In this document: piece after piece, positions 4,447-23,848 of the stretch | Layout: each line of letters starts with the position of its first letter | Position numbering within the stretch: the stretch's first letter is position 1 | Notes under the pieces: generated by a model | The model's database searches: none | What the model was told of the DNA's origin: nothing | The model's input: only the letters and a program-made list of their open reading frames with translations | DNA from: Alphaproteobacteria bacterium | Lineage (GTDB): Bacteria > Pseudomonadota > Alphaproteobacteria > UBA828 | Reading direction: 5' to 3' | NCBI GenBank assembly: GCA_965237415.1 | Contig: CBDEFM010000001.1 | Span: forward strand, 352,001-416,000 | DNA: 64,000 nt | Translations under genes and position numbers: made by a program

Positions 4447-4788
4447 TCAGGCGGGGCTGGTTTCGCGCGTGTGCGCCCAGGGGCATTGCTCCCACAGCGT
4501 GCGGAGCGTGCGCGGCATGCCCGCGTACTCGCCGTCGTTGTGGTTGTAGGAGGGCCAGTCCTGGTCGCGCATCCAGGTGGAGCCGTCGAGGTAGTAGACG
4601 CCGCCGGGGCATGTGCGCCGGATTGGGGCGCCGTCCGCGGGCCGCCATTCGTAGCCGATGAGCGGCCGGTCGTGGTGGTCGGAGCGGTAAAGGGTCAGCC
4701 GCCATTCGTGCTTGCCGATCGTCATGGGCTCGGACTGGCGGATAACCCGGTTGCCGGCGAAGTCGAATGCGCTCCCGCCCTCCATCAT
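4447..4788 (-). CDS. Hypothetical protein (~113 aa)
   Basis: ATG at 4788 overlaps the upstream TGA (ATGA); Trp/Tyr-rich, protein-like composition. Confidence 0.55.
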   Translation of the reverse strand: MMEGGSAFDFAGNRVIRQSEPMTIGKHEWRLTLYRSDHHDRPLIGYEWRPADGAPIRRTCPGGVYYLDGSTWMRDQDWPSYNHNDGEYAGMPRTLRTLWEQCPWAHTRETSPA

Positions 4789-5150
4789 GCGGTCTCCGCG
4801 ACGGGCTTCATCGTGTAGCTGCACTCGACATCGCAGTCGGCGCAGATCGCGGCGGGCTCGTATGTGCTGTGCAACGCCCAGCGCTGGGCATCGACGTCCC
4901 AGCAGGCCCACGCATCCACTTGGACACCGGTGCCGCCGCAGGTGTTGCAGACGGGCTGCATGCGCGGTCCCGCCGCGGGCTCGCGCGGGTTCAGCATCGC
5001 TGCGCCGCCGCACCCCTCGACCGGGCAGTCGCCGGCGGGCATGACGTCGCCGGGATGCACGCGCTCATGCAGGTGACGGAATTCCAGCGTGTCGTCGACC
5101 GGACCCGTCCAGCCGCAGTCCTGGCACGCGGCGGTCTCTATCTGGCCCAT
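4785..5150 (-). CDS. Cys-rich putative zinc-ribbon protein (~121 aa)
   Basis: ATG at 5150 with GAGGAG RBS; CQDC, CPVEGC, CNTC and CADC pairs. Confidence 0.65.
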   Translation of the reverse strand: MGQIETAACQDCGWTGPVDDTLEFRHLHERVHPGDVMPAGDCPVEGCGGAAMLNPREPAAGPRMQPVCNTCGGTGVQVDAWACWDVDAQRWALHSTYEPAAICADCDVECSYTMKPVAETA

Positions 5151-5178
5151 GGGGCTTCTCCTCGAATCGCAGGGGAAT

Positions 5179-5282
5179 TGGTGGGGCGGGCGGGATTCGA
5201 ACCCGCGAGGTCGGTCCCTCCAGTTGACTCCGACCACTCCCGCGCAGAGGGCGTTCACAGCTTGGCCGGAGCCTCACGCCCC
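5179..5282 (-). ncRNA. tRNA-like RNA (104 nt) with encoded CCA, degenerate anticodon arm and long extra arm
   Basis: 5' GGGGCG pairs with CGCCCC-A-CCA; T arm GCGGG-TTCGAAT-CCCGC; D-like stem GGCT/AGCT starts at nt 10 and its loop contains GG; extra helix GGTCGG/CCGACC. Confidence 0.6.
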
Positions 5283-5339
5283 GATGGCGCTCGACCGAAG
5301 GGCGAGTCCGAAATCCCTGTCCCCGGTCGGAATCGCAGC

Positions 5340-5678
5340 TCAGTGCAACAGGTCGGCGACGCCGAGCCTCTCGAAGGCGTGGCGCAATCCGTCGTCACTT
5401 CCGGGGTCGATCTTCATCGGGCCGTAGCCGGCTTCGTCGTTCCACCGCGCGAGCTCGCGCAGCTGCTCTGTGAACTCGGCATCGGTGTCGCAGACCGTCG
5501 TGGTGAGATCTCCTTCGGCGAAGTTGACGATCGTGCGCACGGCGGGCGAACACCATGTGCCGTAATAAGAGGCATCCTGCTTCGTATCGACCTGGGCGAA
5601 GCCGTTGGCGATTGAGCATGGGCCGCAGTCGAAGCTGTAGCGGTCCGACAGCGGCTTGAAGTCTCGGCTGGTTTTCAT
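5340..5678 (-). CDS. Hypothetical protein (112 aa)
   Basis: DRYSFD..GFAQVDTKQDASYYGTW..FAEGD is protein-like and on the operon strand. Confidence 0.7.
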   Translation of the reverse strand: MKTSRDFKPLSDRYSFDCGPCSIANGFAQVDTKQDASYYGTWCSPAVRTIVNFAEGDLTTTVCDTDAEFTEQLRELARWNDEAGYGPMKIDPGSDDGLRHAFERLGVADLLH

Positions 5679-5744
5679 GGGGTCTTGGTCCCTCGTAGCG
5701 AACGCTTGGATGGCGCTCGATGGAGCGGTGGGGCCGGCCTGGCG

Positions 5745-6233
5745 TCAGTTGTCGAATCCGCAGATGCGAATCCGGGCCCGTCCTTCGGTGACCGTCACGT
5801 CCGGGCGGCCCCCGGGTCCGGGCGTGACGATGACGAGCGGTTTGTTGGCTGGGGGATGCGGCGGATCGCGCACCTCCGCGGTGACCGTGCCGGCGGTGCT
5901 CGCGAAACGCATGAGCACCCGCCCGCGGGTGACTTCGATACCGCCGCCGGGCTTTGCCGGGTCGGTGATGGTGACGATCGGCGGCTCGCCCTGCTCGGTG
6001 AAGCGGTCGGGCACCGGCAACGCGGTATCCGTGGCCCACGGATCGGCATCGGCGCCCTCGCACACGGCATCGACGTGCGAGTCGCCGCAATGGTCGAGGG
6101 AGCGCCAGGCATCGCTCTGGTTGGCGGCCTCGAGGGCCTTCTCCAGCGCCTCATCGAGGGTCTCCGCCTCGACGGTGACGGTGTTCGCGAAATACGCCGG
6201 ATACACACACTGGACAGTGAACGGTCTGGTCAT
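5745..6233 (-). CDS. Hypothetical protein (~162 aa)
   Basis: GTG/ATG start overlaps the GHKL gene stop; GAGG RBS; MTRPFTVQCVYPAYFANTVTVEAETLDEALEKA. Confidence 0.6.
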   Translation of the reverse strand: MTRPFTVQCVYPAYFANTVTVEAETLDEALEKALEAANQSDAWRSLDHCGDSHVDAVCEGADADPWATDTALPVPDRFTEQGEPPIVTITDPAKPGGGIEVTRGRVLMRFASTAGTVTAEVRDPPHPPANKPLVIVTPGPGGRPDVTVTEGRARIRICGFDN

Positions 6234-7981
6234 CACGCCACCTCTGCAACGGGCTCGCCCAGCGTGACCGTCACCTTGCGGTCGCGCACCGCGATGTCGA
6301 CGTCGCGGTCGCGGGGGAAGAGCCAGAAGATCTCGCGCGAGAGCGCATCGGCGATGGAAACCTTGCGTGCCTCGTCGTCCGAACAAAGAAGCCTCGTGGC
6401 AATGTGAAGGGCCTCGTGGTCGAAGTCCGCCCTTTGCCGGTCCCACGAGTCGGCGTCGGCGTCATCGGAAGGCGAGAAGAACCCGGCCCGCATCAGCTCG
6501 GCGAGCGCATGGGGTTCGAGAGTGCTGGCGATGGTCACCAGCGGCAGGGCGTCGCCGACCCACGACCAGGCTTCGCCGGCGAACGCGAGATCGGTGTCGA
6601 GGTCGACGATGCGCCCCGGCCCCTCGGCCGGCCTGACCGCGAGGCCGATGCAGATCGCGTCGGGCTGCTGCGGCAGGGGCGCCTGCGGCGCGCCCGTCCG
6701 GTCGGGCACGGGATACGTATCAAGGGCGCAGGCTCGCCCCCCGGCCGTGACCGTGGTGTGGATGTTGCGGACCCGGTCGAGCCGGTCGTACCACGCATAG
6801 CCTTCGAGACGGCGGTCGGTCTCGAACAGGCGGTCCGCGATGCCGGCCCGCTTCGCCGCGCGCGCAAACGCCTGAGCTTCCGGCGGCTCGGGGTCGCAGG
6901 CCATGACCAGCGCGCCATCGCCGACGGCGGCACGCTTCGGCGGCTCGCGCCAGTCGTCGACGTCGGCGAGGCTCGCGCGCCAGGGGCGAAGCTCGGCCGG
7001 CGGCGCGGCGATGTCGATGTCGGCCTCGTGCGCCCGCTTGCGGTCCTCGAAGCACGGGCGCGGGTCCGGATCGGCGGCCATGGCGCGGAAGATGGCAAGG
7101 CGCGCGGCCTCGCGCATCCCGGCAAGGAACGGCGTCTCGACCGCCTCCTTGCGGGCGGGCAGCACCAGCTCCAGGTCGGGGCAGTCGTCGATATCGGCGG
7201 CCACCGTCCACTGGGGACCATGCACGGCTTCGACGGTCGGCAGGCGGACGGCCACGGTGAGGCCGTGGAAGTTCACATCCGGGTCGTTCAGGCCGAAGCC
7301 GTTCCAGCGGTCCTTGAACACGCCGAAGACCAACCCCTGCCAACGCTCGGCATGCAGCGCGCCGTCGAGGAAGGCGCAGCGTTCGAGCGCCGCGCCGCCG
7401 GCCGGGGTGTCCGGCACGTTCTCGAAGAAGACCGGCAGCGGATAATGGCGCGCGGCGGTCTCGGCGGCCCGGCGGATGGCCTCGGCGGTCTCGGTCTCCG
7501 TCGCCTGGAAGGTGACGGCGGTGCCATAGCGCCAGGGCGCGGCATCGTCGGGATAAACGTGGGCTTCGGCTTCGCCCAGGAAGTGCGCGGGCGTCAGCTC
7601 GACACGCCAGCCCGGGGCGGGGTCGTAGCCCGTGGTCCGGGTCCGGGACGAGACGGTGCAGCCGCGTCGCGCGAGGCTCAGCATGCCCATGCCGGCGGCG
7701 TCCTCGCGGCGGACCAGGTCCTCGTTCCAGCCGTTCTCGCCGAACGACAGCAGGACGGACGCGTCGGCGATGCCGGCGCCATCGTCGGCGACGGTGACGG
7801 TCAGGGGGCCGGTCTCAGGGCCGCCGACGATGACGTGGACGCGCGTGGCGCCGGCCCGACGGCAGTTCTGAAAGGTCTCGGTGAAGATGTCCGCGAGCCC
7901 GGCGGCATACATCCTTGTGACGCGGCGGATGGCGCCGTCATGGACCCGCGCGCGGATGGGCGAGGCGATGGAATCGTTCAT
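6233..7981 (-). CDS. GHKL (HATPase_c/Hsp90-like) ATP-binding protein with uncharacterised C-terminal region
   Basis: ETFQNCRRAGA (N box), VADDGAGI (G1 box), DAAGMGMLSL (G2 box), GTAVTF; ATG at 7981 with GAGGAG RBS. Confidence 0.8.
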   Translation of the reverse strand: MNDSIASPIRARVHDGAIRRVTRMYAAGLADIFTETFQNCRRAGATRVHVIVGGPETGPLTVTVADDGAGIADASVLLSFGENGWNEDLVRREDAAGMGMLSLARRGCTVSSRTRTTGYDPAPGWRVELTPAHFLGEAEAHVYPDDAAPWRYGTAVTFQATETETAEAIRRAAETAARHYPLPVFFENVPDTPAGGAALERCAFLDGALHAERWQGLVFGVFKDRWNGFGLNDPDVNFHGLTVAVRLPTVEAVHGPQWTVAADIDDCPDLELVLPARKEAVETPFLAGMREAARLAIFRAMAADPDPRPCFEDRKRAHEADIDIAAPPAELRPWRASLADVDDWREPPKRAAVGDGALVMACDPEPPEAQAFARAAKRAGIADRLFETDRRLEGYAWYDRLDRVRNIHTTVTAGGRACALDTYPVPDRTGAPQAPLPQQPDAICIGLAVRPAEGPGRIVDLDTDLAFAGEAWSWVGDALPLVTIASTLEPHALAELMRAGFFSPSDDADADSWDRQRADFDHEALHIATRLLCSDDEARKVSIADALSREIFWLFPRDRDVDIAVRDRKVTVTLGEPVAEVA

Positions 7982-11154: not shown

Positions 11155-12498
11155 TCAACCCGTGGGAATGTCGATGCGTTCGCCCCAGGGCTCGCGGTTC
11201 CAGTCCGACGGCGGGTCCGAATAGTTGACCCAGCAGACCCCGAAATCAGGCTCAACCTCGGGGTAGCTGGAGCACTCCATGTCCGTGAAATACAGGCACA
11301 CCCCCGGCCGGATACCCTGCTCGTCGAGCCAGGCGAAGCCCGGCCGGAAGTCGGTGCCGCCCCGGCCCCTGATCACGATCTCGTCGGGGAGATCGTCGGC
11401 GGTGTATTCGGCCGCGTCCTGTACCGCCGAGTCGACCTGGAGGACGATGACGCGCTCCGGCTGGATCTCGGTCGCGACCTCGCGCAGCTCGGCCCAGAAC
11501 TCGGCAAGGGTCGCCGCGGGGAGCGAGCCCGAGGTGTCGACGATGACCGCGATCGCGTCGATGCCCTCGGAGCGGATCGAGGGCAAATAGAGTCCCGAGT
11601 CGATGAAGCGCCGGTTGGGCAGGCTCCAGCTGTAGTCGCGGCGCGCGGCGTCGGTCATGTAGCGGCGCAGCAGCGCACGCCAATCCAGCATGCTGGCGTG
11701 GGCGCCCTTCACCGTCTCCTCGACCCCGCCCGGCGCCTTGCCCTCGGCCTTGGCGAGATTGAGGGCCTGATGCATGGCCTCGTCCCACGCCTGCTCCTCG
11801 GCGATGACATCCACCGGCGACTCGTCCGCCTCGCCGTTGCCGCCGCCGCGGGCGCCCGCGTCCATGATCTCTCCGGTGCCGGAGGGATCGTGGCTCGCCG
11901 GTGCGTCGGACCCATCGCCCTGGCCATCCCCGTCCTGGCCGTCCGCATCCTCGTCGCCGCCATCGTCCGGGGAAGCGGAGGAACTGTCCGACTCCCCGTC
12001 ATCGTCACCGGGCGGCGACGGGGCGACTGCTCCGGCGCCGGAGCTTCCGCCGGACGGCGCGTTGCCGTCGTCGCCGGGATCTCCGTCCTGCGGCTCGGTC
12101 AGGCGGTCGTAGGCCTGCTCGACACTGAGCCCGTCCCAAGCCTCGGCCTCGGGCGGCAGGGTGAAGCCCGCGTCGCGCACGAGCGCGTGGGTGACGAGCT
12201 GCGAGGCCTGCTGCCAGCGCTCCGGGTCGCGCTCGCCCCGGCGGGTGTGGTGCTTCAAGGCGCAGGCCATCACAACGCGTGCCATCGCGGTCTCGATGAC
12301 ATGGGCATCGGTGTCGGCGATCCAGCGGGGCGAGTAGCGGATCTCGTGCCCGTCGCTCGCCAGTGTCTCGCGGCTCGGATCGGCGCGGAGCGGGAGCCGG
12401 AGCGCGAGGCTGCCGAAGAAGGGCTGCTTGCGCAGGAGCTCGGTCACGGTGGCGCTGGTGCGCTGCGCCGATTCCGTCTGCACGCGGCCGGCCATCAC
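11155..12498 (-). CDS. DUF2201-type protein: metallopeptidase-like N-domain, acidic linker, vWA-like C-domain
   Basis: PFFGSLAL..TLASDG..HHTRRGERDPERW; vWA motifs VIVDTSGS, GRGGTDFRPGF and YFTD. Confidence 0.82.
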   Translation of the reverse strand: MMAGRVQTESAQRTSATVTELLRKQPFFGSLALRLPLRADPSRETLASDGHEIRYSPRWIADTDAHVIETAMARVVMACALKHHTRRGERDPERWQQASQLVTHALVRDAGFTLPPEAEAWDGLSVEQAYDRLTEPQDGDPGDDGNAPSGGSSGAGAVAPSPPGDDDGESDSSSASPDDGGDEDADGQDGDGQGDGSDAPASHDPSGTGEIMDAGARGGGNGEADESPVDVIAEEQAWDEAMHQALNLAKAEGKAPGGVEETVKGAHASMLDWRALLRRYMTDAARRDYSWSLPNRRFIDSGLYLPSIRSEGIDAIAVIVDTSGSLPAATLAEFWAELREVATEIQPERVIVLQVDSAVQDAAEYTADDLPDEIVIRGRGGTDFRPGFAWLDEQGIRPGVCLYFTDMECSSYPEVEPDFGVCWVNYSDPPSDWNREPWGERIDIPTG

Positions 12499-13425: not shown

Positions 13426-13575
13426 TTACCGGAGCGTCCACACGGGCACGCCCAGGGTCCGGGCGAGCTTCTCTCTCGCCGCTTCGAGGCTGGATGCGCG
13501 CACCTTGTATTCGCGCGAACCCCGCCTGCCGGCGGGGTAGTGGGTGATGCGCCAGAGCATGGCTTCCTCCGTCAT
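13426..13575 (-). CDS. Small hypothetical protein (49 aa)
   Basis: ATG at 13575 overlaps the AAA gene stop (ATGA); MTEEAMLWRITHYPAGRRGSREYKVRASSLEAAREKLARTLG. Confidence 0.45.
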   Translation of the reverse strand: MTEEAMLWRITHYPAGRRGSREYKVRASSLEAAREKLARTLGVPVWTLR

Positions 13576-14597
13576 TGCGTCTTGGCCGCGGCCCAGCGGA
13601 TGAAGGCCGGGGAGCGCTGCAACGCCGGCTCGCGGCGCACGCAGGACCCGACGAGGAACTCGCCGACCTCGCGCCGGAGCCGCGTGGCGTAGGTGACGAT
13701 GGCGTCGAAGTTGATGTCGCTGGCGAGGCGGTAGAGCGAGCCGCAGAGCGCCATCAGCGCGCTCGCGTTCTCCGGGATGTCGGCGTTCGCGGGGTCGTTG
13801 ATGACGGCCCTCGGATGAGGCAGCTCGCGCCAGACCTTCAGGAACGCGGCAAACTCGACCGCCGCGGCCTCGCCGATGGTGCCGCGGAACAGCGCGCGCT
13901 CGGCCGCCGGGTCGAGGCCGTTGCGGCGCTGCACGATGTTGCTCGCGAAATGCCAGGTCCTCGGACACGCAAACGCGCGTTCACGCGACTGTGGATCGAA
14001 GTGATGCAGGAGGTCCGGTTCGAGCTGGACGAAGAAGATCACCTCGGCCGCGATGCCGTTGGTGGCGGCCCAGGCGCACCAGTCGTCCGCATCGACGCGG
14101 ATCTCGAGGTGGACGAAGCGCGAGGCGAGCGGGGTCGGCATCCGGTGCACGACGCCGCGGTCGGATTCCCGGTTGCCGCAGGCGATGAGCGATGCACCCT
14201 CGGGCAGCTCGTATTCGCCGACTTTCCGGTCCAGCACCAACTGATACAGCGCCGCCTGTACCATGGGTACAGCCGAGGGCAGCTCTTCGAGATTGATGAG
14301 CCAGAGGCCGGGATCGTCCGACGGCGGCAGGAAGGCGGGCGGCGCCCAGCGGGTGCGGTCGGCGCTGTCGCGCCAGGGGATGCCGCGCAGGTCCACGGGG
14401 TCGAGAAGCAGCGCGCGGACGTCGACATACTGGCGGTTCGCGTCGGCCGCGACCTGCTGGGCGATCATCGATTTGGCGGCTCCGGGCGGTCCCCAGACCA
14501 TACAGGGCTGGCGGGCCTCGACGAGGAGCGCGAGCGTGCTGGCGAGCTCACTCGGGCGCAGCGTGTAGTCGGCGGAGATAGTGGCGGGATTAGTCAT
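13572..14597 (-). CDS. MoxR-like AAA+ ATPase (~341 aa) with variant Walker motifs
   Basis: WGPPGAAKS, DPVDLRGIP, LINLEELP, ACGNRESD and PLASRFVH; ATG at 14597 with GGAG RBS. Confidence 0.85.
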   Translation of the reverse strand: MTNPATISADYTLRPSELASTLALLVEARQPCMVWGPPGAAKSMIAQQVAADANRQYVDVRALLLDPVDLRGIPWRDSADRTRWAPPAFLPPSDDPGLWLINLEELPSAVPMVQAALYQLVLDRKVGEYELPEGASLIACGNRESDRGVVHRMPTPLASRFVHLEIRVDADDWCAWAATNGIAAEVIFFVQLEPDLLHHFDPQSRERAFACPRTWHFASNIVQRRNGLDPAAERALFRGTIGEAAAVEFAAFLKVWRELPHPRAVINDPANADIPENASALMALCGSLYRLASDINFDAIVTYATRLRREVGEFLVGSCVRREPALQRSPAFIRWAAAKTQ

Positions 14598-14852
14598 GGG
14601 CAGGGCTCCGAATGGCAGGGAATCGGCGCGGATGCCCTCCCCGGACATCCGGCCTTCGCCCCACCGGCTGCTCCGCTCCTGCTCTCTGCGGTTCGGCCTC
14701 ATGCGGCCGGCTGGATGACGGCGGCGGGGCGAACAGCGGGCAGGCCTGCCGTCAGGTGGGTGCGGCGGCCGGCTGTCGCGGAGAGGCAACGGAGAGGGCC
14801 GTCGTATACGGACGCGTCGGAGGCGTTGCCGGGTGCGCGGACGGCGTGTTAA

Positions 14853-15152
14853 ATGCCAGTCATGACCGGTTGGAGCGACAACATCGAGGCCGTCGCGCGT
14901 GCCGTGTGCGCGAAGAGGCTGGCGCATGACGGCATTAGCGAGGAGCAGCTCGCTGCCGACGTAGACATGTGGTGGCACTTGACTGCGGCGGAGCTCGAAT
15001 GCGGGGTCATCGACGAGACCGGGGAGTACGTGGGCGACGAGATCGACTGGAAACGCAATATGGACGGTTACCGCGACTGGATGCGCCGCCATCCCGAGAG
15101 CCGCGCGGTCTGGGAGACCGCCCGGTACGGGGCGCCGCTACCGCGAAATTGA
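14853..15152 (+). CDS. Hypothetical acidic protein (99 aa)
   Basis: Only plus-strand gene in the run; Trp/Asp/Glu-rich, protein-like sequence. Confidence 0.55.
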   Translation: MPVMTGWSDNIEAVARAVCAKRLAHDGISEEQLAADVDMWWHLTAAELECGVIDETGEYVGDEIDWKRNMDGYRDWMRRHPESRAVWETARYGAPLPRN

Positions 15153-16015
15153 TGGATGCCGCGGCCGGGCGGAGACGTGCTTGCGAAGGCCGAGCGCCCG
15201 GCGCGCCGACGCCGCATCGGCGTCCACGGGAATGCCGGTCAGGTCCGGCAGGTACTGCCGCGTGGGCGACAGGGTGTGACCGATTCGCCGTTCGAGGGCC
15301 GCGTATTTGACGTAGAGATCGGGGCGCAGCTCGGCCGCGCGGCGCAAGTCTGGTCGCGATGCGAAAATGCAGAACGAGCACGAGCATCTCGACAACCCGA
15401 ATGAGTAAACGGGGTGCGGCGATTGGCCGGCCTCGGCGATGATGCGGAAGACGTCTTCTGTGGTGAGCTCGAACACCGGCAGCCAGTCAAAGACCTCACG
15501 GCCCGCGACGCTCATGCGCTCGTTGCGGCGCCACGGGATGCGCCTGGCGCGCCCTCGGCTCTCGTCGCGCCGCAAGCCGAGGGCGTTGACGAGCCGTCCT
15601 TCGAAGCGGGGATGGGCTTTCAGGTAGCGGCGGAGCCGCGCTGGATAGGTCCGCGCTTCGCATCCGACGTGCACCATCTTGCTGATTTCGAGGGCCACAT
15701 CCCCCTCTCCTCGACGCGTTCGAGCAAGGTCTTGCCGGAGGCGACGGGAGCCGTGATGAGCGGCACGCCCGGCGGAATCGTGTTCTCGATATGCGCGATG
15801 GTGCCAGGCCACTCCACCTCGCCCAGGGGGGCATGAACGACGAGAAGCTGCTCGCGGGGAACGAGCTGCGAGAGCAGGACCGTCATGGATTGGCTGTCCT
15901 TGCCGCCGGAGTGATTGACGGCGACGAGAGTGCCGCGCCGGATCATGTCGCGGCACTCGGGAGGAATGGAAATATCGGAAGTGGGACGGCGATGAAGCGG
16001 AGTGCGCGTGCTCAT
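15138..16015 (-). pseudogene. PAPS-reductase-family protein, frameshifted
   Basis: SGGKDS and RWCTSDAKRGPI in ORF 15620..16015; GLRRDESRGR and SRCSCSFC in the next frame. One base missing near 15636 (cgc g-g ctc instead of cgc gag ctc) would join them. Confidence 0.8.
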
Positions 16016-16251
16016 GCCTCGTGTCCGTCGTGGTCAGTGAGGACCATGAATTTCGGAATCGAAACGAAGATCGGCGCGATCTGGTATCCGGTCTCGGCAT
16101 GGTGGTTGTCGGGCTCATGTCCGGTAGTGGCGACGATTGCTGCTGCGGGTTCGCCGTTCACGTGGGAACTAAATGGAGCGAAGTAGTCGTAGTCACCGCT
16201 CATGAGTGTCTGGAAGGCGCGCCGGTGTTCCTCGGTGATGTTGGTCGTCAT
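16012..16251 (-). CDS. Hypothetical protein (79 aa)
   Basis: ATG at 16251 with AGGGA RBS; stop overlaps the PAPS-reductase ATG (ATGA). Confidence 0.6.
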   Translation of the reverse strand: MTTNITEEHRRAFQTLMSGDYDYFAPFSSHVNGEPAAAIVATTGHEPDNHHAETGYQIAPIFVSIPKFMVLTDHDGHEA

Positions 16252-16601
16252 GGCAGTATCCCTCTGGATGGCGCATCGCGCGGAAACGGCGCGGCGGCCT
16301 CGCTCGGGCACACGCGCCTCGACCGGCTGCCGCAGAGCTCGCCTCGTCATGCAGGTCGGCAGGCTCACGGAGTCGAGACAGAGCGTTATCGTGCAGATGG
16401 GAGCGAACGGGTCTGCGGCTGGCAGAGGGTCAGGTGGGTGCTAAGGTAGGGCCTGAGGATGAAATGAATTCAAGGGGTCGGGGATTGCCTGGGTGCAGTG
16501 GCGAAATCGCACGGGACAACGAGAGACTAGGCAATGAAGGCGCGCCGGATTGCTTTGGCGGCAGTGGGCGGTGCGGGAACGCTGATCAGGGGAGACGTCA
16601 A

Positions 16602-16874
16602 GTGAGAAAGTCGGACCGGGCGAATCGCATCGCTGCAGAGGCGCTTGTGACCCCGCTCGCCGCGCAGACAGTGGTCGATATAACGTTCTCCGAGATCGCG
16701 GAGGTTCTGGCGTGGGGAGAGAAAGCCACTATTCGCGGGTTCGGTACATTCGCGACCACGCGCAGGACTGAGCGCGTCGGGAGAAACCCTCGCACCGGCG
16801 AACCAGCCGCGATACCGGCCTCGACATCCCGGTCATTTAGGGCATCCACAAGTCTCAGTGACGCGGCATACTGA
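16602..16874 (+). CDS. HU/IHF-family DNA-binding protein (drifted)
   Basis: GTG at 16602 after GGAG; GEKATIRGFGTF..RVGRNPRTGE signature. Confidence 0.75.
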   Translation: MRKSDRANRIAAEALVTPLAAQTVVDITFSEIAEVLAWGEKATIRGFGTFATTRRTERVGRNPRTGEPAAIPASTSRSFRASTSLSDAAY

Positions 16875-16965
16875 GTAACGGACAGTCTCCGCCAAAGAGG
16901 AACGGCAGATGCATCCTTACACCGTTCGTGGGGCTAGGTGACGAATCGTCAACGTGGCGGATTCA

Positions 16966-18015
16966 ATGAAGTTGACCGACTTAAAACGACACATACAGGA
17001 GCACTTTCGTGACCGACTGGTTGCGGTGGTCGGGTCCGGGCTGTCGGCGGCCGAGGGTTTGCCCACAATGGTTCAGCTCGAATCCCATCTCCGAACGGAA
17101 GTCCCAAAGCATCTACCGGCTGGGTCGGCTGGAGAGTGGAAGCGAGTCGAGGCAGAGCTTGCAGTCGGAGACGGCCTCGAAGCAGCACTTCATCGTGTCC
17201 AGATTTCGGAAGACCTGGGAGCCACGATTCTCTCCCTAACCGGTACGTACGTTTTGGAATGCGAACGCGAGGTTATACGAAGCGCAGTGGCCGGCGAACG
17301 GATTCTAAGGTTCGCCAGCCTATTGCCCTACTTGAATCCCAAGCCCAATGATCCCGTTTCGGTTGTAACCGTCAACTACGATCGCCTGGTTGAGCTCGGT
17401 GCAGAGATTTCAGGCTGGGGTGTGGACACAATGTTTATAGGGACAAGATTTGGGGTCTTGGACCCTGCCCTCAGCGAACGGTCGTTCGTCCAGGACATCG
17501 CCCGGAGACCCAAGGGCGGGTATCGGTTGATCTACAGAAATCGCATTCGTGTCTACAAACCACACGGAAGTCTCGACTGGTTCAAGAGCGATCGAGGTCC
17601 GTTGTACTGCCCAATTGACTTTCCGGGCGAACGTCTGATCGTAACGCCTGGTGTGACGAAGTATCGGCAGGGCTACGAGCGTCCCTTTGATATACACCGG
17701 GAGAAGGCCAATGAGCAAATCGATGCCTGTCGGCGGCTATTCTGCGTGGGCTATGGGTTTAACGACGACCACCTGCAGGTCCACCTGAGGGACAAGATGC
17801 GGGCGGGTACACCGACTTTAATACTCACTCGAACCTTATCGACGTCAGCCATGGATCTAATTGAACAGTCTTCCGGTGCTATTGCGGTGTCCAACAACGA
17901 AGAAGACCCGACAGGTTCGACAATAGTGGTAGTAACGGCGACTGACTCGGAGGTGATTGCAGCTCCACCTCTGTGGGACCTCGCTGTACTCATCGATGAG
18001 GTACTTTCACCATGA
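16966..18015 (+). CDS. SIR2-like (SIR2_2) NADase, Sir2-HerA defence effector
   Basis: VVGSGLSAAEGLP, VTVNYDRLVE, YKPHGSLDW and VGYGFND motifs. Confidence 0.85.
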   Translation: MKLTDLKRHIQEHFRDRLVAVVGSGLSAAEGLPTMVQLESHLRTEVPKHLPAGSAGEWKRVEAELAVGDGLEAALHRVQISEDLGATILSLTGTYVLECEREVIRSAVAGERILRFASLLPYLNPKPNDPVSVVTVNYDRLVELGAEISGWGVDTMFIGTRFGVLDPALSERSFVQDIARRPKGGYRLIYRNRIRVYKPHGSLDWFKSDRGPLYCPIDFPGERLIVTPGVTKYRQGYERPFDIHREKANEQIDACRRLFCVGYGFNDDHLQVHLRDKMRAGTPTLILTRTLSTSAMDLIEQSSGAIAVSNNEEDPTGSTIVVVTATDSEVIAAPPLWDLAVLIDEVLSP

Positions 18016-19781
18016 CCGAAGCAGCCCTGCAATTTGGCGACCAGGACCGTATAGGTCGGGTTATTGCGGTAGACACAAGCCGCGTAGCGATTGACGTTGA
18101 AGACCATGGGCTAATGACCACCTTGGCCGTTGGCAATTTGGTCGCCATCCGAGGTTTGACAGCACAGGAATTTTTGATCGGCATTATCGAAAGAGCCACC
18201 CGAAGCGTTCGAGAGGAACTGCTGACGGAAGACGCTGATGAAGAGGGCAACGTTCCGGTTGGCGAGGTACAGGAGGACATAATCCGGGCCGTACTTGTTG
18301 GAACGTTCCGGGTGCTCGATGGGGACATTGTAAATATTTTCAAGCGAGGCGCGGATTCATTTCCACAGATTGACCGCGAGTGTTTTCTTATTTCAGCAGC
18401 AAATCTGCAACGGTTCATGAATTTACTGAGTGCCAATGTTGAGGAAGGGGAGAGACTTCAGCTTGGCCAGTACGTATCAGATAGCAATGCAATTGCAATC
18501 GCAAATGGTGACAAGTTCTTTCAAAGACATGCAGCCGTACTAGGCAGTACGGGTTCGGGTAAGAGTTGGTGCACGGCGCTGATCCTGGAGCGCGCCAGTA
18601 AACTTGCGCATCCCAATCTCATCGTGCTGGACATGCACGGGGAGTATTCTCCGATAGCCGACGAATGTAAGGGATACGCAGCGCAGTTTCGTATCGCTGG
18701 CCCAGGGGACCTGGAAGCGCCGACGAATGAGAACGTATTCTTGCCATACTGGTTACTCAATCGAGAAGAAATGCTTGCCATGATTCTCGATCGGAGTGAT
18801 CAAAATGCTCCCAACCAAGCGTCACGTTTCACGCACCACGTTAAGGAGTTGAAGGACCAGACACTTGACGAAGCGGGAAAGCAAGATGTGCGAAAGACCT
18901 TCACCGTCGATTCTCCAGTATTCTATTCTCTTGACGAACTACTAAAGCGGCTTGAATCGGACGATAGTGGCATGAAACCTGGTGCTGGGAAAAACTTAAT
19001 TAAGGGTGATTGGAATGGAAAGCTGACCAGATTCGTTGCCCGACTAAAAGCGAAGGTCGATGATCGTCGCTATGGATTCATGTTTCGCCCACCCGTTGAA
19101 TCGGCACGTTACGAGTGGTTGGGAGAGCAAGTCGTTAGGCTGCTCGACTCGTCGGAGAAGCGACGTGGGATTAAGGTTGTCGACTTCTCGGAAGTCCCCT
19201 CAGATGTGCTTCCCGTCGTGGCTGGTGTTTTTGCCCGACTATTGTATGACGCACAGTTTTGGATTGAGAAAGCCAGTCGTACACCGATTTGCTTGGTATG
19301 TGACGAGGCTCACCTGTACCTGCCGGTGAAGGCCGAGGCTGAAGCAGTGGAACGGCGGGCACTCGAAACGTTCGAGAGAATCGCCAAGGAGGGGCGCAAG
19401 TATGGCGTTGCCTTGATGGTTGTGAGTCAGCGACCATCAGATGTGAGCCGCACCATTTTGAGTCAATGCAACAATTTTCTGGTTCTAAGATTGACGAACG
19501 ACCAAGATCAGTCAGTCGTAAGAAGGCTGATGCCGGATTCAATGGTCAGTTTCACGGAGATGCTGCCGCTGCTGGAAACTGGGGAGGCGCTGCTCTTGGG
19601 AGACGCTGTCCTTCTTCCAACAAGAATTCGCCTTGATGTTCCTGAACTGAAGCCCGCAAGTGCCACCCGAGATTTCTGGACAGAATGGCGAGAGCGAACC
19701 CCGAAGGAGAAAGCGATTCAAGACGCAATTGAGACATTGCGTCGGCAAAGTCGTTTGAACTCCCAGGATGGAGGTTGCTAG
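18012..19781 (+). CDS. herA: HerA/FtsK-family ATPase (DUF87)
   Basis: N-terminal HAS-barrel-like region, RHAAVLGSTGSGKS, LDMHGEY, CDEAHLY, EGRKYGV and SQRPSD; ATGA-coupled to the SIR2 gene. Confidence 0.88.
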   Translation: MTEAALQFGDQDRIGRVIAVDTSRVAIDVEDHGLMTTLAVGNLVAIRGLTAQEFLIGIIERATRSVREELLTEDADEEGNVPVGEVQEDIIRAVLVGTFRVLDGDIVNIFKRGADSFPQIDRECFLISAANLQRFMNLLSANVEEGERLQLGQYVSDSNAIAIANGDKFFQRHAAVLGSTGSGKSWCTALILERASKLAHPNLIVLDMHGEYSPIADECKGYAAQFRIAGPGDLEAPTNENVFLPYWLLNREEMLAMILDRSDQNAPNQASRFTHHVKELKDQTLDEAGKQDVRKTFTVDSPVFYSLDELLKRLESDDSGMKPGAGKNLIKGDWNGKLTRFVARLKAKVDDRRYGFMFRPPVESARYEWLGEQVVRLLDSSEKRRGIKVVDFSEVPSDVLPVVAGVFARLLYDAQFWIEKASRTPICLVCDEAHLYLPVKAEAEAVERRALETFERIAKEGRKYGVALMVVSQRPSDVSRTILSQCNNFLVLRLTNDQDQSVVRRLMPDSMVSFTEMLPLLETGEALLLGDAVLLPTRIRLDVPELKPASATRDFWTEWRERTPKEKAIQDAIETLRRQSRLNSQDGGC

Positions 19782-20128
19782 CTGTGGGAAATGGGATGCG
19801 TGGTGCTGTATCCGTTTCCGGGAAAAAGTTGCACTACCTGCCGGAGTCGATCAACGGACGAGCACAATTTGTACATCGAACGGTGTCGGTGATTTGTCAA
19901 TGGCGAAGATATGCGAGGGCAAGGGACGGAGCAAGAGAGTGCCAGCTTGGTTTTGGGCGCGGCTGAGCGTTCGCTCGGTTCGGACTGGGAGCTCCGGTGC
20001 GTCAGGCTTCTCCGGACGCCGGTTGATCTCCTTCCGGGGGGGCTGCTTGGTAGTGGAGGACCGAATGGCGCCTAGCCGCTGTGCCGCGGCTGCACAGTCG
20101 ATATCCGCCTAACGGAGGTCTGTTTGGG

Positions 20129-21361
20129 ATGAACGGCGGCGATAGGGTACAGAAGTGCAAACCAACACTCAACCATGCTTTGAGACAGTTCGAGTTGGCT
20201 GAAGCGAACCTGGCTAGGCTCGAAACGCTCTGGCAGAAGATTGAAGGCGAGTTGCCGAACGGACCAGCATTTGGTGCTCCTCCTAAGTACGACGAGTGGT
20301 GCATTGCGTTCAAAAGCATCCTCGCGATGTTGCCTGCCGTGGATGGCTTTCGCGTCGAAGATCACCTGTACGAGTACGATGAAGCGGGGCAGATGCAGTT
20401 TGATGCGTTAGAGTTGGGTGAGGTCGAAGCGCAGCTTAGTGTTTCTAGGGAGTTGGCGGAACAGGGACGTCAACTCAGAGAGTATCGTGTTCACTTCCAA
20501 GCGAAACGGCGGAAGTTGGTGCGCGACAGGATTTTGAAGAGAATGAGTGAGCTGGACCAAGTAGTGGCCCAGTTTGACCGTAAGGGCTCCGGAGGGCGGG
20601 GCAAGCCAAACGTTGCGATTGGGGCGTGGAGCCAGCTACGAAAGGCAGTCGACGAGATCGAGACATTGCTTGGCAGCAGTGGTCGGCCAGAACAGTGGAG
20701 CACCCTGAAGCGGCCACGGCACGATGACAACGATGCTCAAGTCGCCGGGGAACTCATGGAGGCCGCTTTTCGCGTTTGGCCGAGTGTCAGGGCCTCACTG
20801 AGCGACGGTCTGTACGGCGAGTTAGATCCGATTCCTGTTGGTGCTAACGACTTGGGCGAGGTCGTCAACGAAGATCCAGCAGGGCCGGTGTCGACCAAGT
20901 TGGAGTGGTCTGCGTTGGACGATGAGGATTTCGAACGCTTGGTGTACCAACTGATCTCCGAAGCCAAGGGGTACGAGAACGTACAATGGCTACAAAAGAC
21001 TCATGCGCCGGACCGCGGCCGGGATCTTTCTGCGGACAGAGTGTACGCCGACGCTTTAGGCAGCGTGCGAAGGTTTCGCACAATCATCCAGTGCAAACAC
21101 TGGTTGTCAAGAAGTGTGGGACGCAGTGAGATAGGGGAGGCTCGGGACGCAATGGAACTCTGGCAGCCCCCTCGGGTGGACATCTTGGTCATCGTAACGT
21201 CGGGACGATTTACGGCAGACGCGGTGGCGATAGTGGAGAATCACAACCAGTCCGACAAGGCGCTTGCCATCGAGATGTGGCCGGAGAGTCACCTGGAGAC
21301 GCTCTTGGCTGCCCGACCCCACTTGATCGGTCAGTTTGGCTTGCGTAGCGCAAGCCAGTAG
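20129..21361 (+). CDS. Mrr-like (PD-(D/E)xK) restriction endonuclease with large N-terminal helical domain
   Basis: C-terminal DFERLVYQL..PDRGRD..IIQCKHW..IVTSGRFT; start uncertain (20081 or 20129). Confidence 0.75.
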   Translation: MNGGDRVQKCKPTLNHALRQFELAEANLARLETLWQKIEGELPNGPAFGAPPKYDEWCIAFKSILAMLPAVDGFRVEDHLYEYDEAGQMQFDALELGEVEAQLSVSRELAEQGRQLREYRVHFQAKRRKLVRDRILKRMSELDQVVAQFDRKGSGGRGKPNVAIGAWSQLRKAVDEIETLLGSSGRPEQWSTLKRPRHDDNDAQVAGELMEAAFRVWPSVRASLSDGLYGELDPIPVGANDLGEVVNEDPAGPVSTKLEWSALDDEDFERLVYQLISEAKGYENVQWLQKTHAPDRGRDLSADRVYADALGSVRRFRTIIQCKHWLSRSVGRSEIGEARDAMELWQPPRVDILVIVTSGRFTADAVAIVENHNQSDKALAIEMWPESHLETLLAARPHLIGQFGLRSASQ

Positions 21362-21515
21362 AACGTCAGCAAGCGTCTAGGTTGGCGAGAGAGCCAGCCC
21401 CCGAGCGGACCACGTTCGCATAAGGCACCGAGCCGTCGCTGACCCTCGACATCACGGCGCGAACCAATGTTCGCAATGGAAGCAGTCCTGGCCGAACGGA
21501 TGCATTTGGGGAGAC

Positions 21516-21953
21516 CTAGACAGGCGTGGCGCCCGTGGCGCTGCGAATGCGGCACTGGACGAACGAGTAGTGTCCGCCTTTCAACCTCTCTGCCTGCTTG
21601 CCGGTCACGATCACCCAGTCTCCCACATCGACGGACGGTCGGGACTTATCATCCCGATCTCCCTCCAAGCGGTACCGAGGCGAATTTTTCTCGCCCTCGT
21701 CCGCTAAGAATTCATGAAGGTCCATGATACGAGTGATCTGGAGCGGCCTCAGAGTCATGAACGGCGTGCGCCACATCCACCACTGGCGGCGCACTTCCGA
21801 CCAGTACGATGCGATAAACGCCAGGCCCGAGACCACAAGAATCGCCCACGCTGCGGGGTCTGCCTGCCCGGGAGGGAAATACGAATCAAAGGTACGTCCG
21901 GCGCCAGCGCCTATACCGATGGCCGATATGGTTCGGAACACCTCTCGAATCAT
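21516..21953 (-). CDS. Hypothetical membrane protein
   Basis: Hydrophobic N-terminal segments (AWAILVVSGLAFIASYW); follows the 125-aa gene. Confidence 0.4.
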   Translation of the reverse strand: MIREVFRTISAIGIGAGAGRTFDSYFPPGQADPAAWAILVVSGLAFIASYWSEVRRQWWMWRTPFMTLRPLQITRIMDLHEFLADEGEKNSPRYRLEGDRDDKSRPSVDVGDWVIVTGKQAERLKGGHYSFVQCRIRSATGATPV

Positions 21954-21981
21954 CTGAGCCTATCCAGGACGACTCGCCTCG

Positions 21982-22359
21982 TCAGTGTTGCGACCACACG
22001 GCGTAGACGTTGTTCAATTCTCCGATCCAGCATGTATCTGGATCGGAGATGTCTCGCCCGCGTTCTTCGGCCATTTCGAAGAACCCAGAGCCTGGTGCCC
22101 CGTCGTCCTTATGGACGACCAAGGCTGTCAGTAAGCCACGCCGCGCTTCGTCTTCCTCGGACGCTATCTCGTAGAGCATGTGGTTCAAGCGAACGTCGTG
22201 GGGCTCAAGGTCGCATTTCGTAATCTTCTGCACGAGGTCAGAGTAATAGATCACATCGTTGTGCCGCGCTCGATCGATCATGACTCGTCGTGCCTCGTCT
22301 TTCGCGGCCTCCCAAGTACGGCGGTCGCAGCATCCAGGATCGAAACCGTCGCGCCTCAT
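21982..22359 (-). CDS. Hypothetical winged-helix-like protein (125 aa)
   Basis: AGGAG RBS; IYYSDL..LLTALVVHK..PGSGFF pattern, which I recall from defence-island proteins. Confidence 0.65.
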   Translation of the reverse strand: MRRDGFDPGCCDRRTWEAAKDEARRVMIDRARHNDVIYYSDLVQKITKCDLEPHDVRLNHMLYEIASEEDEARRGLLTALVVHKDDGAPGSGFFEMAEERGRDISDPDTCWIGELNNVYAVWSQH

Positions 22360-23153: not shown

Positions 23154-23165
23154 AAGAACAGCAAC

Positions 23166-23341: not shown

Positions 23342-23378
23342 TAAGAGATAGGCGAGTAGCCGACCTGATGATCCACCT

Positions 23379-23841: not shown

Positions 23842-23848
23842 GGCGGTC

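What the first reader, a model, noticed from the sequence alone, without database searches (positions are those of the whole stretch)
5164..5338. 104-nt CCA-ending tRNA-like RNA with broken anticodon arm inside the mobile-element operon
Seen (minus strand, 5282 to 5179): acceptor GGGGCG/CGCCCC plus A-CCA, a perfect T arm (GCGGG-TTCGAAT-CCCGC), a D-like stem starting at nt 10, no valid anticodon loop (no U33, stem of only 2-3 bp), and a long extra helix GGTCGG/CCGACC. It is flanked by a 9-bp direct repeat GAATCGCAG (5164-5172, 5330-5338) and sits just upstream of the Zn-ribbon gene RBS. Inference: a tRNA mimic rather than a decoding tRNA. It could be an RNase P/Z processing cassette for the polycistron, a decoy for anticodon nucleases, a Y-RNA-like elbow mimic, or a captured integration target.
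Basis: partly seen in the sequence, partly recalled or inferred. Interest (0 to 1): 0.72.

Follow-up and report, generated by a model that had tools for sequence, protein, structure and literature searches.

The report
Anticodon-less tRNA-like RNA in mobile element
A 104-base RNA that keeps the top half of a real tRNA but has no anticodon arm sits between two genes of a mobile element and is conserved in related elements, so it is probably a processing signal or a tRNA mimic, not a decoding tRNA.

Summary
The element is real. Window 5179-5282 (minus strand) has a 6-bp acceptor stem, a canonical T arm and ACCA. ARAGORN calls no tRNA and no Rfam family reaches its threshold.

It belongs to a family of 22 distinct sequences, all from uncultured Alphaproteobacteria-type MAGs and metagenomes. 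It lies about 28 nt upstream of the start codon of an acidic Zn-ribbon gene in the window and 19 of 21 related loci.

The family supports this layout: acceptor, long irregular arm (P2, AGUA/GAA loop-E-like motif, P3 with a variable tip), short P4 hairpin, T arm. The 9-bp direct repeat exists only in this copy. The encoded CCA is not conserved; R-C-C is.

Acceptor and T arm match genuine class II tRNAs (Leu-UAA, Tyr-GUA) of other phyla. No tRNA of the host genome matches.

The RNA is more conserved than fourfold-degenerate sites of the neighbouring gene. Even so, 8 related loci have lost it or let it decay.

My best reading (about 0.4) is a co-transcribed, tRNA-derived RNase P/tRNA-end processing module. 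A trans-acting tRNA mimic is the main rival. Nothing about function has been tested experimentally.

The parts
5179..5282 (-). tRNA-like RNA, 104 nt, member of a 22-sequence family (model R1)
   Evidence: R1 score 104.8 bits
5277..5282 (-). acceptor stem, 5' strand GGGGCG. It is followed by invariant U7 (5276) opposite invariant C (5189): a U.C mismatch, or G8-C with U7 bulged
   Evidence: pairs 1-6/97-102 are about 96% paired; U7, G8 and C96 are invariant in 22 of 22
5179..5189 (-). acceptor 3' strand C-CGCCCC (5189-5183), discriminator A (5182) and CCA (5181-5179). Across the family the end is R-C-C-N
   Evidence: position 103 A15/G7, 104 C21/U1, 105 C22, 106 G14/A6/U1/C1
5190..5206 (-). T arm GCGGG-UUCGAAU-CCCGC. 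With the acceptor it gives a 12-layer stack
   Evidence: all 5 pairs never vary. The 24-mer shared with the 3' acceptor strand equals the 3' end of genuine class II tRNAs
5228..5271 (-). long arm. P2: 5271-5265 with 5234-5228. Loop-E-like module: 5264-5262 opposite 5238-5235. P3 hairpin: 5253-5249 with 5246-5241, with a variable tip
   Evidence: P2 92% paired with GC<->CG at 16/53 and CG<->GC at 18/51. Columns 19/50 are G.A in 19, G-C in 2 and C-G in 1 (the window)
5208..5218 (-). P4, a short hairpin one nucleotide before the T arm, in the position of a class II long variable arm
   Evidence: 67/77 G.U 20, A-U 2; 70/74 C-G 4, U-A 2. It aligns with the variable arm of the host's own tRNA-Ser and tRNA-Leu
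5219..5227 (-). conserved single-stranded linker UCAACUGGA (UGGA almost invariant)
   Evidence: columns 63, 64 and 66 are invariant; column 65 is G in 21 of 22
5151..5178 (-). 28-nt spacer with conserved UUCCCC and the Shine-Dalgarno GAGGAG (5163-5158)
4785..5150 (-). downstream gene: 121-aa acidic double Zn-ribbon protein (P0001), no known family
5340..5678 (-). upstream gene (P0002, 112 aa); matches the C-terminal part of phrog_24512
5164..5172 (.). 9-bp direct repeat, copy 1 (copy 2 at 5330-5338); not a family feature
5330..5338 (.). 9-bp direct repeat, copy 2

Best explanation
What it is (about 0.85 confident): a structured RNA descended from a class II tRNA.
- It keeps the acceptor/T-arm minihelix, the R73-C74-C75 tail and a short variable-arm-like hairpin (P4).
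- Its D arm and anticodon arm are replaced by one long irregular hairpin: P2, an AGUA/GAA loop-E-like module, then P3.
- It cannot decode.

How it most likely works (about 0.4 confident; inferred, not shown):
1. It is transcribed as part of the minus-strand operon of the mobile element.
2. The host's tRNA-end machinery recognises the minihelix. RNase P would cut 5' of G1 (5282). 3' trimming would act at or after R-C-C.
3. This cuts the polycistronic mRNA just upstream of the Zn-ribbon cistron. The downstream message would then have its own 5' end about 28 nt before the ATG.
4. A stable RNA of about 105 nt is released.

The conserved long arm suggests the released RNA, or the uncut leader, also binds some factor. 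That factor is unknown.
For: Shown:
- It forms a conserved family: 22 distinct sequences, 83-127 bits with R1.
- It is on the same strand as the Zn-ribbon gene in every locus, about 28 nt before its ATG in the window, and the gene follows it in 19 of 21 related loci tested.
- The upstream gene differs between loci: P0002 in the window, L088 and L090; a 144-aa paralogue in most others. The RNA therefore travels with the downstream cistron.
- No sigma-70-like promoter or intrinsic terminator is found in 4600-5900, which fits co-transcription.
- Acceptor (6 bp), the position-7 layer and the T stem (5 bp) make the 12-layer stack of a tRNA. The T loop UUCGAAU is canonical and invariant.
- R73-C74-C75 is kept in 21 of 22 sequences, while position 76 is G in 14. 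By contrast, 42 of the host's 46 tRNAs end in an encoded CCA. This pattern is what RNase P needs (established knowledge, recalled: RCC pairs with the P15 loop of type A RNase P RNA). It is not what an encoded aminoacylation end looks like.
- The host has a type A RNase P RNA, 268 bits.
- G.U pairs mark the folding strand as the operon sense strand: 67/77 is G.U in 20 of 22; see also 13/56 and 15/54.
- RNA identity is 0.865 against 0.682 at fourfold sites of the adjacent gene. The RNA is higher in 164 of 171 pairs.
- L088 has a deletion variant that keeps only a stem made of the two ends plus ACCG. That is a minihelix plus RCC.
- An RNA-library contig of a roughly 90%-identical relative spans 5095-5304. 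This is weak evidence, because DNA carry-over is not excluded.
Against: - No transcript ends are known. All runs available were contigs, which cannot show starts or ends.
- The RNA is dispensable for the Zn-ribbon gene. Eight of 27 protein-anchored loci lack it or keep only a decayed part: L088, L089, L091, L095, L097, L100, L107, L112.
- Covariation is thin. Only 3 pairs have changes on both sides (97 of 500 shuffles reach that), and the sequences are close relatives.
- A plain processing signal would not need the strongly conserved long arm or the UGGA linker.
- Some copies carry acceptor mismatches (L011, L036, L038).
- Folding z-scores are modest, from -0.19 to -3.38.
Confidence: 0.4

Rival explanations
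1. A trans-acting tRNA mimic. The excised RNA is the product. It occupies or titrates a protein that recognises the acceptor end, T arm or elbow of tRNA. Candidates are a host toxin or defence enzyme acting on tRNA 3' ends, or a factor encoded by the element. This would help the element establish itself in a new host.
For: - Conservation extends beyond what a cleavage signal needs: the AGUA/GAA module, the UGGA linker and invariant U7, G8, A9.
- It sits in an operon of establishment-type genes of a mobile element: strawberry notch helicase, a large ParB-HTH protein, AAA ATPase plus VWA/DUF2201, with an integrase and NikA-like genes nearby.
- In most loci the upstream neighbour is a basic protein, pI 8.65.
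Against: - No partner is identified.
- The Zn-ribbon family is acidic (median pI 4.66 across 99 proteins, a few of which are partial or fused forms), so it is an unlikely RNA binder.
- PADLOC finds nothing in 10 operon proteins.
- With no anticodon loop, the known anticodon-nuclease targets are excluded.
- The RNA is lost in 8 related loci.
Confidence: 0.2
2. A cis-acting leader of the Zn-ribbon mRNA. The folded tRNA-like domain stays attached and acts as a 5' stabiliser or translational modulator, without endonucleolytic processing.
For: - The distance to the SD and ATG is constant, and the spacer motif UUCCCC is conserved, even in decayed copies.
- The RNA moves together with the downstream gene.
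Against: - A generic stabilising hairpin would not need a perfect T loop and RCC.
- Two of 21 loci keep the RNA without the Zn-ribbon gene: L010 and L037.
- UUCC/GGAG pairing with the SD is only 4 bp (read from the sequence by eye).
Confidence: 0.15
3. A decaying pseudo-tRNA. A class II tRNA gene once carried by the element lost its D and anticodon arms and now drifts without function.
For: - It is lost or truncated in 8 of 27 protein-anchored loci.
- A few copies have acceptor mismatches or T-loop changes: L010, L011, L036, L038.
- The acceptor and T arm are identical to genuine tRNAs of other phyla.
Against: - The RNA is more conserved than neutral-like sites in 164 of 171 pairs.
- The non-tRNA long arm is itself conserved, with compensatory changes.
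- The same architecture is seen in 22 distinct sequences.
Confidence: 0.1
4. A non-decoding aminoacyl carrier. After trimming and CCA repair, a synthetase that ignores the anticodon (Leu, Ser or Ala type) charges it. It then donates the amino acid outside translation.
For: - It has a class II layout with A73 (15 of 22) or G73 (7 of 22) and a variable-arm-like P4.
- The minihelix is intact.
Against: - There is no G3.U70.
- There is no D arm or D loop for LeuRS-type tertiary recognition (recalled knowledge).
- P4 is only 3-4 bp.
- CCA is not encoded in 17 of 22 sequences.
- No aminoacyl-tRNA-dependent transferase was found among the operon proteins scanned.
Confidence: 0.07
5. A DNA-level site, either an integration target or att remnant, or a single-strand initiation structure, rather than an RNA.
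For: - The 3' 24-mer is the kind of tRNA end that integrases use. A mycobacterial locus (L143) shows such a duplicated end next to the start of what looks like a tRNA.
- Decayed copies L089 and L095 keep only the 3' part.
Against: - The full length is conserved, including the 5' strand.
- G.U pairs are strand-specific.
- The element lies inside an operon about 20 kb from the integrase at 25317-26564.
- No host tRNA shares the sequence.
- No interrupted copy was noticed among the 35 matches: each aligns end to end with the model.
Confidence: 0.05

Closest known systems
Class II tRNAs (tRNA-Leu, tRNA-Tyr, tRNA-Ser)
   Same: - The acceptor 5' strand GGGGCG, the T arm and the 3' acceptor strand are identical over 24 nt to tRNA-Leu(UAA) of Chloroflexi and tRNA-Tyr(GUA) of actinomycetes.
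- The discriminator is A or G.
- P4 aligns with the long variable arm.
   Different: - There is no D arm and no anticodon stem-loop.
- Position 7 is U opposite C, not G-C.
- Real class II tRNAs score only 18-37 bits with the family model, against 83-127 bits for members.
- ARAGORN and Rfam do not call it.
tRNA-like domain of tmRNA (RF00023)
   Same: - It is the best Rfam match, 19.8 bits.
- It has an acceptor plus T arm without an anticodon arm, and a long helix leaving the core.
   Different: - The score is far below the gathering score of 47.
- It has no G3.U70, no pseudoknots and no tag reading frame.
- It is 104 nt.
- The host has its own permuted tmRNA elsewhere.
tRNA-like processing signals inside longer transcripts: mascRNA/MALAT1 (RF01684), plant mitochondrial t-elements, RNase P sites in E. 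coli operon mRNAs (all recalled, not read here)
   Same: - It is a tRNA-like fold embedded in a longer RNA.
- The proposed use of RNase P and tRNA 3'-end enzymes to define RNA ends is the same.
- The weak mascRNA match, 16.9 bits, covers the same minihelix.
   Different: - It is bacterial and carried by a mobile element.
- It has an extra conserved long arm.
- Processing is not demonstrated.
- It is not a sequence relative of these elements.
YrlA / bacterial Y RNAs (recalled)
   Same: It is a non-decoding RNA with a T-arm-containing tRNA-like module.
   Different: - In YrlA the RNA ends lie in the Ro-binding stem, not in the acceptor stem.
- No Rfam Y RNA match was found.
- No TROVE/Rsr hit was found among the operon proteins scanned.
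tRNA 3'-end att remnants of integrative elements
   Same: It shares the 3' tRNA half. Decayed copies L089 and L095 look like such remnants.
   Different: Intact copies conserve the whole 104-106 nt, including the 5' strand and the non-tRNA arm. They are not next to an integrase.

Membership tests
tRNA (RF00005) | acceptor stem with discriminator and CCA end | tested here: inconclusive
   There are 6 bp plus a conserved U.C at layer 7. R-C-C is conserved, but A76 is encoded in only 6 of 22 sequences
tRNA (RF00005) | T arm with a 5-bp stem and UUCRANY loop | tested here: met
   GCGGG-UUCGAAU-CCCGC; the five stem pairs never vary across the 22 distinct sequences and the loop is the same in all but L010 and L038
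tRNA (RF00005) | D arm (3-4 bp stem from nt 10, loop with GG) | tested here: not met
No alternative D hairpin is conserved
tRNA (RF00005) | anticodon arm with a 7-nt loop and U33 | tested here: not met
   The P3 tip is 3-7 nt and varies in sequence and length
tRNA (RF00005) | recognised by tRNA finders or at Rfam's gathering score | tested here: not met
   ARAGORN finds 0 in the window and 0 in 16 family loci. No Rfam gathering hit. The best clan hit is 19.8 bits
tmRNA (RF00023) | score at or above gathering; tag ORF and pseudoknots; G3.U70 | tested here: not met
   19.8 bits against 47, with only the model's ends aligned. Pair 3/70 is G-C in 22 of 22. At 104 nt there is no room for a tag ORF
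tRNA-like processing element (t-element / mascRNA type) | embedded in a longer transcript on the sense strand | tested here: inconclusive
   It is intercistronic, on the same strand, with no promoter or terminator pattern. One RNA-library contig spans it. No direct transcript map exists
tRNA-like processing element (t-element / mascRNA type) | cleaved by RNase P at +1 and by a 3' tRNA-end enzyme | not testable with these tools
   Only contigs were available. The substrate features are present: a 12-layer minihelix, RCC, and a type A RNase P RNA in the host
att-site remnant of a tRNA-integrating element | only the 3' part of a tRNA, identical to a host tRNA, beside an integrase or at an element end | tested here: not met
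   The full length is conserved. No host tRNA has this end. The integrase is about 20 kb away
Y RNA / YrlA | Rfam model match and a neighbouring Ro (TROVE) gene | tested here: not met
   No Rfam match. No TROVE domain in the 20 proteins scanned against Pfam. The rest of the genome was not searched for Rsr

The most novel reading that the evidence does not exclude
The mobile element carries a purpose-built tRNA mimic. It has the top half of a class II tRNA, fused to a new protein-binding arm with a loop-E module, and is cut out of the operon mRNA by the host's own tRNA enzymes. The released RNA would then act in trans on a factor that reads tRNA acceptor ends or elbows. One example would be neutralising a host toxin or defence enzyme that modifies tRNA 3' ends when the element enters a new cell. 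A non-decoding RNA counter-defence or host-manipulation factor has not, to my knowledge, been described for conjugative elements. That statement is from recall; my four literature searches listed nothing of the kind.
Probability: 0.2. Interest if true: 0.8.

Novelty: new variant of a known kind. Interest (0 to 1): 0.55.

Why it matters
- tRNA-like folds reused for non-decoding jobs are known from tmRNA, viral 3' ends, mascRNA, organellar t-elements and Y RNAs. None is described from the cargo or establishment operons of bacterial integrative elements, as far as the searches here show (search listings only; no paper was read).
- This family is absent from Rfam 15 and invisible to tRNA finders. 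It is nevertheless more constrained than the protein gene beside it.
- If it is a processing cassette, it shows bacteria-borne mobile DNA using 'tRNA punctuation' to shape operon mRNAs.
- If it is a trans-acting mimic, it would be a new type of RNA effector of mobile elements.
- Either way it gives a compact natural example of which tRNA parts can be kept and which replaced. The acceptor/T minihelix, RCC and variable arm are kept. The D and anticodon arms are replaced.
- Caveat: the hosts are uncultured, the family is narrow, and no functional data exist.

Tried and rejected
- **Mis-typed pattern scan.** The scan of genome contigs gave 0 hits because I wrote six N where five belong. It is my error, not absence. 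The corrected 24-mer scan is.
- **Phage and plasmid BLAST.** BLAST of 5100-5400 gave only matches of 29-38 nt over the T arm.
- **Wider searches with R1.**
  - None of the 23 genomes from other genera of the family had a hit.
  - In 150 genomes spread over the class, only ordinary tRNAs scored, at 35.5 bits or less.
- **Zn-ribbon protein.**
  - No Pfam, NCBIfam or PADLOC family.
  - One weak PHROG of unknown function.
  - Atlas neighbours are unnamed small zinc-finger clusters.
  - The AlphaFold model has mean pLDDT 68, and Foldseek against the PDB gives nothing at E <= 0.001.
  - No functional lead came of this.
- **Distant plasmid relatives.**
  - Relatives of the Zn-ribbon C-terminal domain have no tRNA-like RNA beside the gene.
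  - Relatives of the VWA/DUF2201 gene on betaproteobacterial plasmids have none either.
- **Antisense targets.** Targets of the conserved single-stranded stretches in the window do not exceed chance.
- **Promoter and terminator scan.** Nothing found.
- **Sequencing runs.**
  - All 24 runs listed were contigs. The four laid cannot show ends, strands or levels.
  - Parts without cover are not evidence.
  - The depth spike at 5181-5217 reflects the widely shared tRNA 3' half.
- **The 9-bp repeat as a target-site duplication.** Rejected, because it occurs only in this copy.
- **Protein-coding reading of the RNA.** The Zn-ribbon frame stays open upstream. This reading is rejected because copies are 100, 104, 105 or 106 nt long, with 1-2-nt indels.
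- **K-turn in the long arm.** Considered by eye and rejected: the GA/AG positions do not fit.
- **Alternative hairpin, columns 52-55 with 62-65.** Rejected, because L008 and L035 change column 53 together with column 16, not column 64.
- **Complex prediction.** Not used: it takes proteins only, and no binding claim is made.
Full report
**1. The observation**

Read on the minus strand, window 5282-5179 is GGGGCG...CGCCCC-A-CCA with a T arm GCGGG-UUCGAAU-CCCGC.
- The Shine-Dalgarno GAGGAG (5163-5158) and the ATG (5150) of a 121-aa ORF follow. I corrected that ORF's frame.
- The 9-bp repeat GAATCGCAG is exact at 5164-5172 and 5330-5338.
- ARAGORN finds no tRNA or tmRNA in the 64 kb. No Rfam 15 family reaches its gathering score.
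- With permissive thresholds on 5100-5400 the best match is tmRNA, 19.8 bits against a gathering score of 47. Only the ends of that model align, to the T arm and acceptor. mascRNA scores 16.9 bits on the same minihelix.

What remained open was the fold and what the element means.

**2. It is a family, not a chance fold**

- The host assembly (4.75 Mb, 2 contigs) holds one copy.
- BLAST against 100 relatives found 17 long matches (74-86% identity) in 10 genomes, all of the same genus. Several genomes hold two or three.
- A covariance model (R1) built on the 18 sequences found the same 18 places. That is 11 of 44 genomes of the family, counting the host, and none of the 23 genomes from other genera.
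- In 150 genomes sampled over the class, only ordinary tRNAs of about 90 nt answered, at 35.5 bits or less.
- I then anchored on the downstream protein.
  - 19 loci came from the species-representative genome collection. 13 of them carry a full-length RNA.
  - 8 loci came from metagenome contigs. 4 of them carry a full-length RNA.
- Altogether there are 35 matches, 22 of them distinct.
- The record titles name uncultured MAGs labelled Alphaproteobacteria or Rhodospirillales, with two labelled Gammaproteobacteria.
- By plasmid BLAST the neighbouring genes resemble those of alphaproteobacterial conjugative plasmids.

**3. The fold**

RNAalifold and pair counts support five helices. Column numbers refer to alignment A1/A3.

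| Helix | Columns | Support |
|---|---|---|
| Acceptor | 1-6 with 97-102, plus G8-C96 | about 96% of cells paired |
| P2 | 12-18 with 51-57 | 92% paired; GC<->CG at 16/53; CG<->GC at 18/51; U.G variants at 13/56 and 15/54 |
| P3 | 30-35 with 39-44 | 94% paired; tip varies in length and sequence |
| P4 | 67-70 with 74-77 | G.U to A-U at 67/77; C-G, U-A or A.A at 70/74 |
| T arm | 79-83 with 91-95 | invariant |

- Overall 93.5% of cells pair, against 42-55% when the partners are slid.
- The covariation score is 0.075 against 0.059 in shuffles (0 of 500 reach it).
- Only 3 pairs change on both sides (97 of 500 shuffles reach that), and the sequences are close kin. The fold is therefore well supported but not proven by covariation.
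Both are accidents of the window copy.
- Single-sequence folding gives the same four-armed layout for the window and for 5 of 6 other copies. In those folds P4 is drawn one or two positions out of register. z-scores run from -0.19 to -3.38.

Next to P2 lies an almost invariant AGUA (columns 47-50) opposite GAA (19-21).
- Columns 19/50 are G.A in 19 sequences, G-C in 2, and C-G in the window.
- I read this as a loop-E / bulged-G-like module. That assignment rests on recalled motif knowledge, not on a tool.
- U7, G8 and A9 are invariant, and the linker UGGA almost so.

**4. Where it comes from**

- The 24-mer covering the T arm and 3' acceptor strand occurs in 55 stretches of the genome collection.
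- Sixteen of these lie in the MAG group. ARAGORN calls no tRNA in any of them. The two I tested with R1 score 115 and 118 bits.
- Of 21 other loci examined, 19 lie in other phyla (L149 and L169 belong to the MAG group). In 15 of the 19 the 24-mer is the 3' end of a genuine tRNA:
  - tRNA-Leu(UAA) in five Chloroflexi;
  - tRNA-Tyr(GUA) in five actinomycetes;
  - one Ser, two Met, one Ala and one Lys.
- Four loci had no ARAGORN call: L143, L144, L150 and L168.
- Those Leu and Tyr tRNAs begin GGGGCGG and score 28-37 bits with R1. Their long variable arm aligns to P4.
- The host's own tRNA-Ser and tRNA-Leu align the same way, at 18-29 bits.
- None of the host's tRNAs has this acceptor/T arm.

The RNA is therefore best described as the top half plus variable arm of a class II tRNA, with the D and anticodon arms replaced by P2-P3.

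**5. Selection and dispensability**

- Mean pairwise identity is 0.857 in the RNA, against 0.654 upstream, 0.696 in the spacer and 0.741 at the CDS start.
- Against fourfold-degenerate sites of the adjacent Zn-ribbon gene it is 0.865 against 0.682. The RNA is higher in 164 of 171 pairs.
- Length differences of 1-2 nt rule out a coding reading.
- Yet 8 of 27 protein-anchored loci have no intact RNA:
  - L088 keeps a hairpin made of the two ends plus ACCG.
  - L107 has an unrelated hairpin.
  - L089 and L095 keep a decayed 3' part.
  - L091, L097, L100 and L112 have other upstream genes and no RNA.
  - Two further loci, L113 and L114, are cut off and uninformative.
- Two of 21 RNA-bearing loci lack the Zn-ribbon gene: L010 and L037.

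**6. Context**

- The window's minus-strand operon runs in this order:
  1. AAA ATPase (13572-15092);
  2. a 303-aa protein;
  3. VWA/DUF2201 (11155-12498);
  4. a 999-aa ParB-HTH protein;
  5. a GHKL-like protein;
  6. two small proteins;
  7. the RNA;
  8. the Zn-ribbon gene;
  9. three unknown genes;
  10. a strawberry-notch helicase (3-2741).
- An integrase (25317-26564), NikA-like genes and an Mrr nuclease lie further on.
- In most related loci the order is VWA, then a 144-aa protein with the same N-terminal Zn ribbon, then the RNA, then the Zn-ribbon gene. The RNA therefore moves with the downstream gene.
- The Zn-ribbon family has 98 clusters and no known domain. It is acidic, with median pI 4.66. 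Its model is mediocre and has no structural match.
- No promoter or terminator pattern flanks the RNA.
- One contig from a metatranscriptome library, from a relative about 90% identical, spans 5095-5304. This is weak evidence, because DNA carry-over is possible and contigs show no ends.

**7. Mechanism**

What survives of the tRNA is exactly what tRNA-end enzymes read:
- a 12-layer acceptor/T stack;
- a canonical T loop;
- R73-C74-C75, kept in 21 of 22 sequences.

Position 76 is free: G in 14 of 22. The host, by contrast, encodes CCA in 42 of 46 tRNAs. The host also has a type A RNase P RNA.

I therefore favour (0.4) a co-transcribed processing module. RNase P would cut at G1 and a 3' activity at the tail. 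That would free the Zn-ribbon message and an RNA of about 105 nt. This is the logic of mitochondrial t-elements and of mascRNA, both recalled rather than read here.

The conserved long arm is not explained by this model. It keeps the trans-acting-mimic reading alive (0.2). The other rivals are listed in the rivals section:
- a cis leader (0.15);
- a decaying pseudo-tRNA (0.1);
- an aminoacyl carrier (0.07);
- a DNA-level site (0.05).

All mechanistic steps are inferred. None is shown.

**8. Comparison and novelty**

- It fails membership of tRNA: no D arm, no anticodon arm, not called by the finders.
- It fails membership of tmRNA: low score, no G3.U70, no tag ORF.
- It fails membership of the Y RNAs and is not an att remnant.
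- It works most like a tRNA-like processing element.
- Four literature searches gave no listing that describes such an RNA in conjugative or integrative elements. I saw search listings and abstract starts only, and read no paper.
- I rate it a new variant of a known kind. Interest is 0.55: a solid new RNA family with an unusual anatomy, but narrow in distribution, dispensable in some elements and without functional data.

Noticed in passing
L122 8534-8686 (Cupriavidus taiwanensis plasmid I): An sbcD RNA motif (RF01757, 144 bits) lies about 3 kb downstream of the ATPase/hypothetical/VWA gene trio that is homologous to the window's operon. Related conjugative-plasmid regions therefore carry other structured RNA motifs.
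   Followed up: no
L088 2453-2480: In one related locus the tRNA-like RNA is replaced by a hairpin of about 27 nt. It is built from the family's 5' GGGGC and 3' GCCCC-ACCG ends, with the same upstream (P0002-like) and downstream genes: a natural internal deletion that keeps a minihelix plus RCC.
   Followed up: partly
L143 3575-3640 (Mycobacterium sp. contig): The same tRNA 3' half (T arm plus CCGCCCCA) stands 3 nt before what looks like the start of a tRNA (GGGGCGGUAGCUCAG...). This looks like an att-type duplication left by an integrated element. Neither ARAGORN nor Rfam at gathering scores calls a tRNA there.
   Followed up: no
G003:C2 1186566-1186671, 1273610-1273709, 1377981-1378086; also G006 (3 copies) and G008, G011, G014 (2 each): Several genomes of the genus hold two or three copies of the RNA with its operon. 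In G003 all three lie within about 200 kb of one contig. This suggests multiple related elements, or tandem accretion.
   Followed up: no
window 5340-5678 (-): The upstream 112-aa protein matches only positions 195-305 of the 305-position phrog_24512 (149 bits, unknown function). It may be a C-terminal domain or a split gene, with the ORF at 5745-6446 upstream.
   Followed up: no
L085 10089-10523 (-) and homologues: A basic 144-aa protein (pI 8.65) shares the N-terminal Zn-ribbon domain of the downstream acidic protein and sits directly upstream of the RNA in most loci. It is absent from the window's genome.
   Followed up: partly
G000:C1 289700-290098: A second partial copy of the DUF2201/VWA gene (aa 1-133, 82% identity) lies about 62 kb upstream of the window in the same contig. 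It may be a remnant of a second related element.
   Followed up: no
window 15000-30900: This stretch has lower third-position GC. It holds an Mrr-type restriction endonuclease (20081-21361), a tyrosine integrase (25317-26564) and two NikA-like genes (28830-29354, 29659-30030). Housekeeping genes (xanthine-dehydrogenase-like) begin at about 30978, so one end of the element probably lies near 26.6-30.9 kb. No tRNA gene flanks it in the window.
   Followed up: partly
window 5181-5217: In three metagenome contig sets the summed depth over the T arm and 3' acceptor is 6- to 20-fold that of the neighbouring bins. This reflects how widely the tRNA 3' half is shared among organisms, not copy number.
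   Followed up: no
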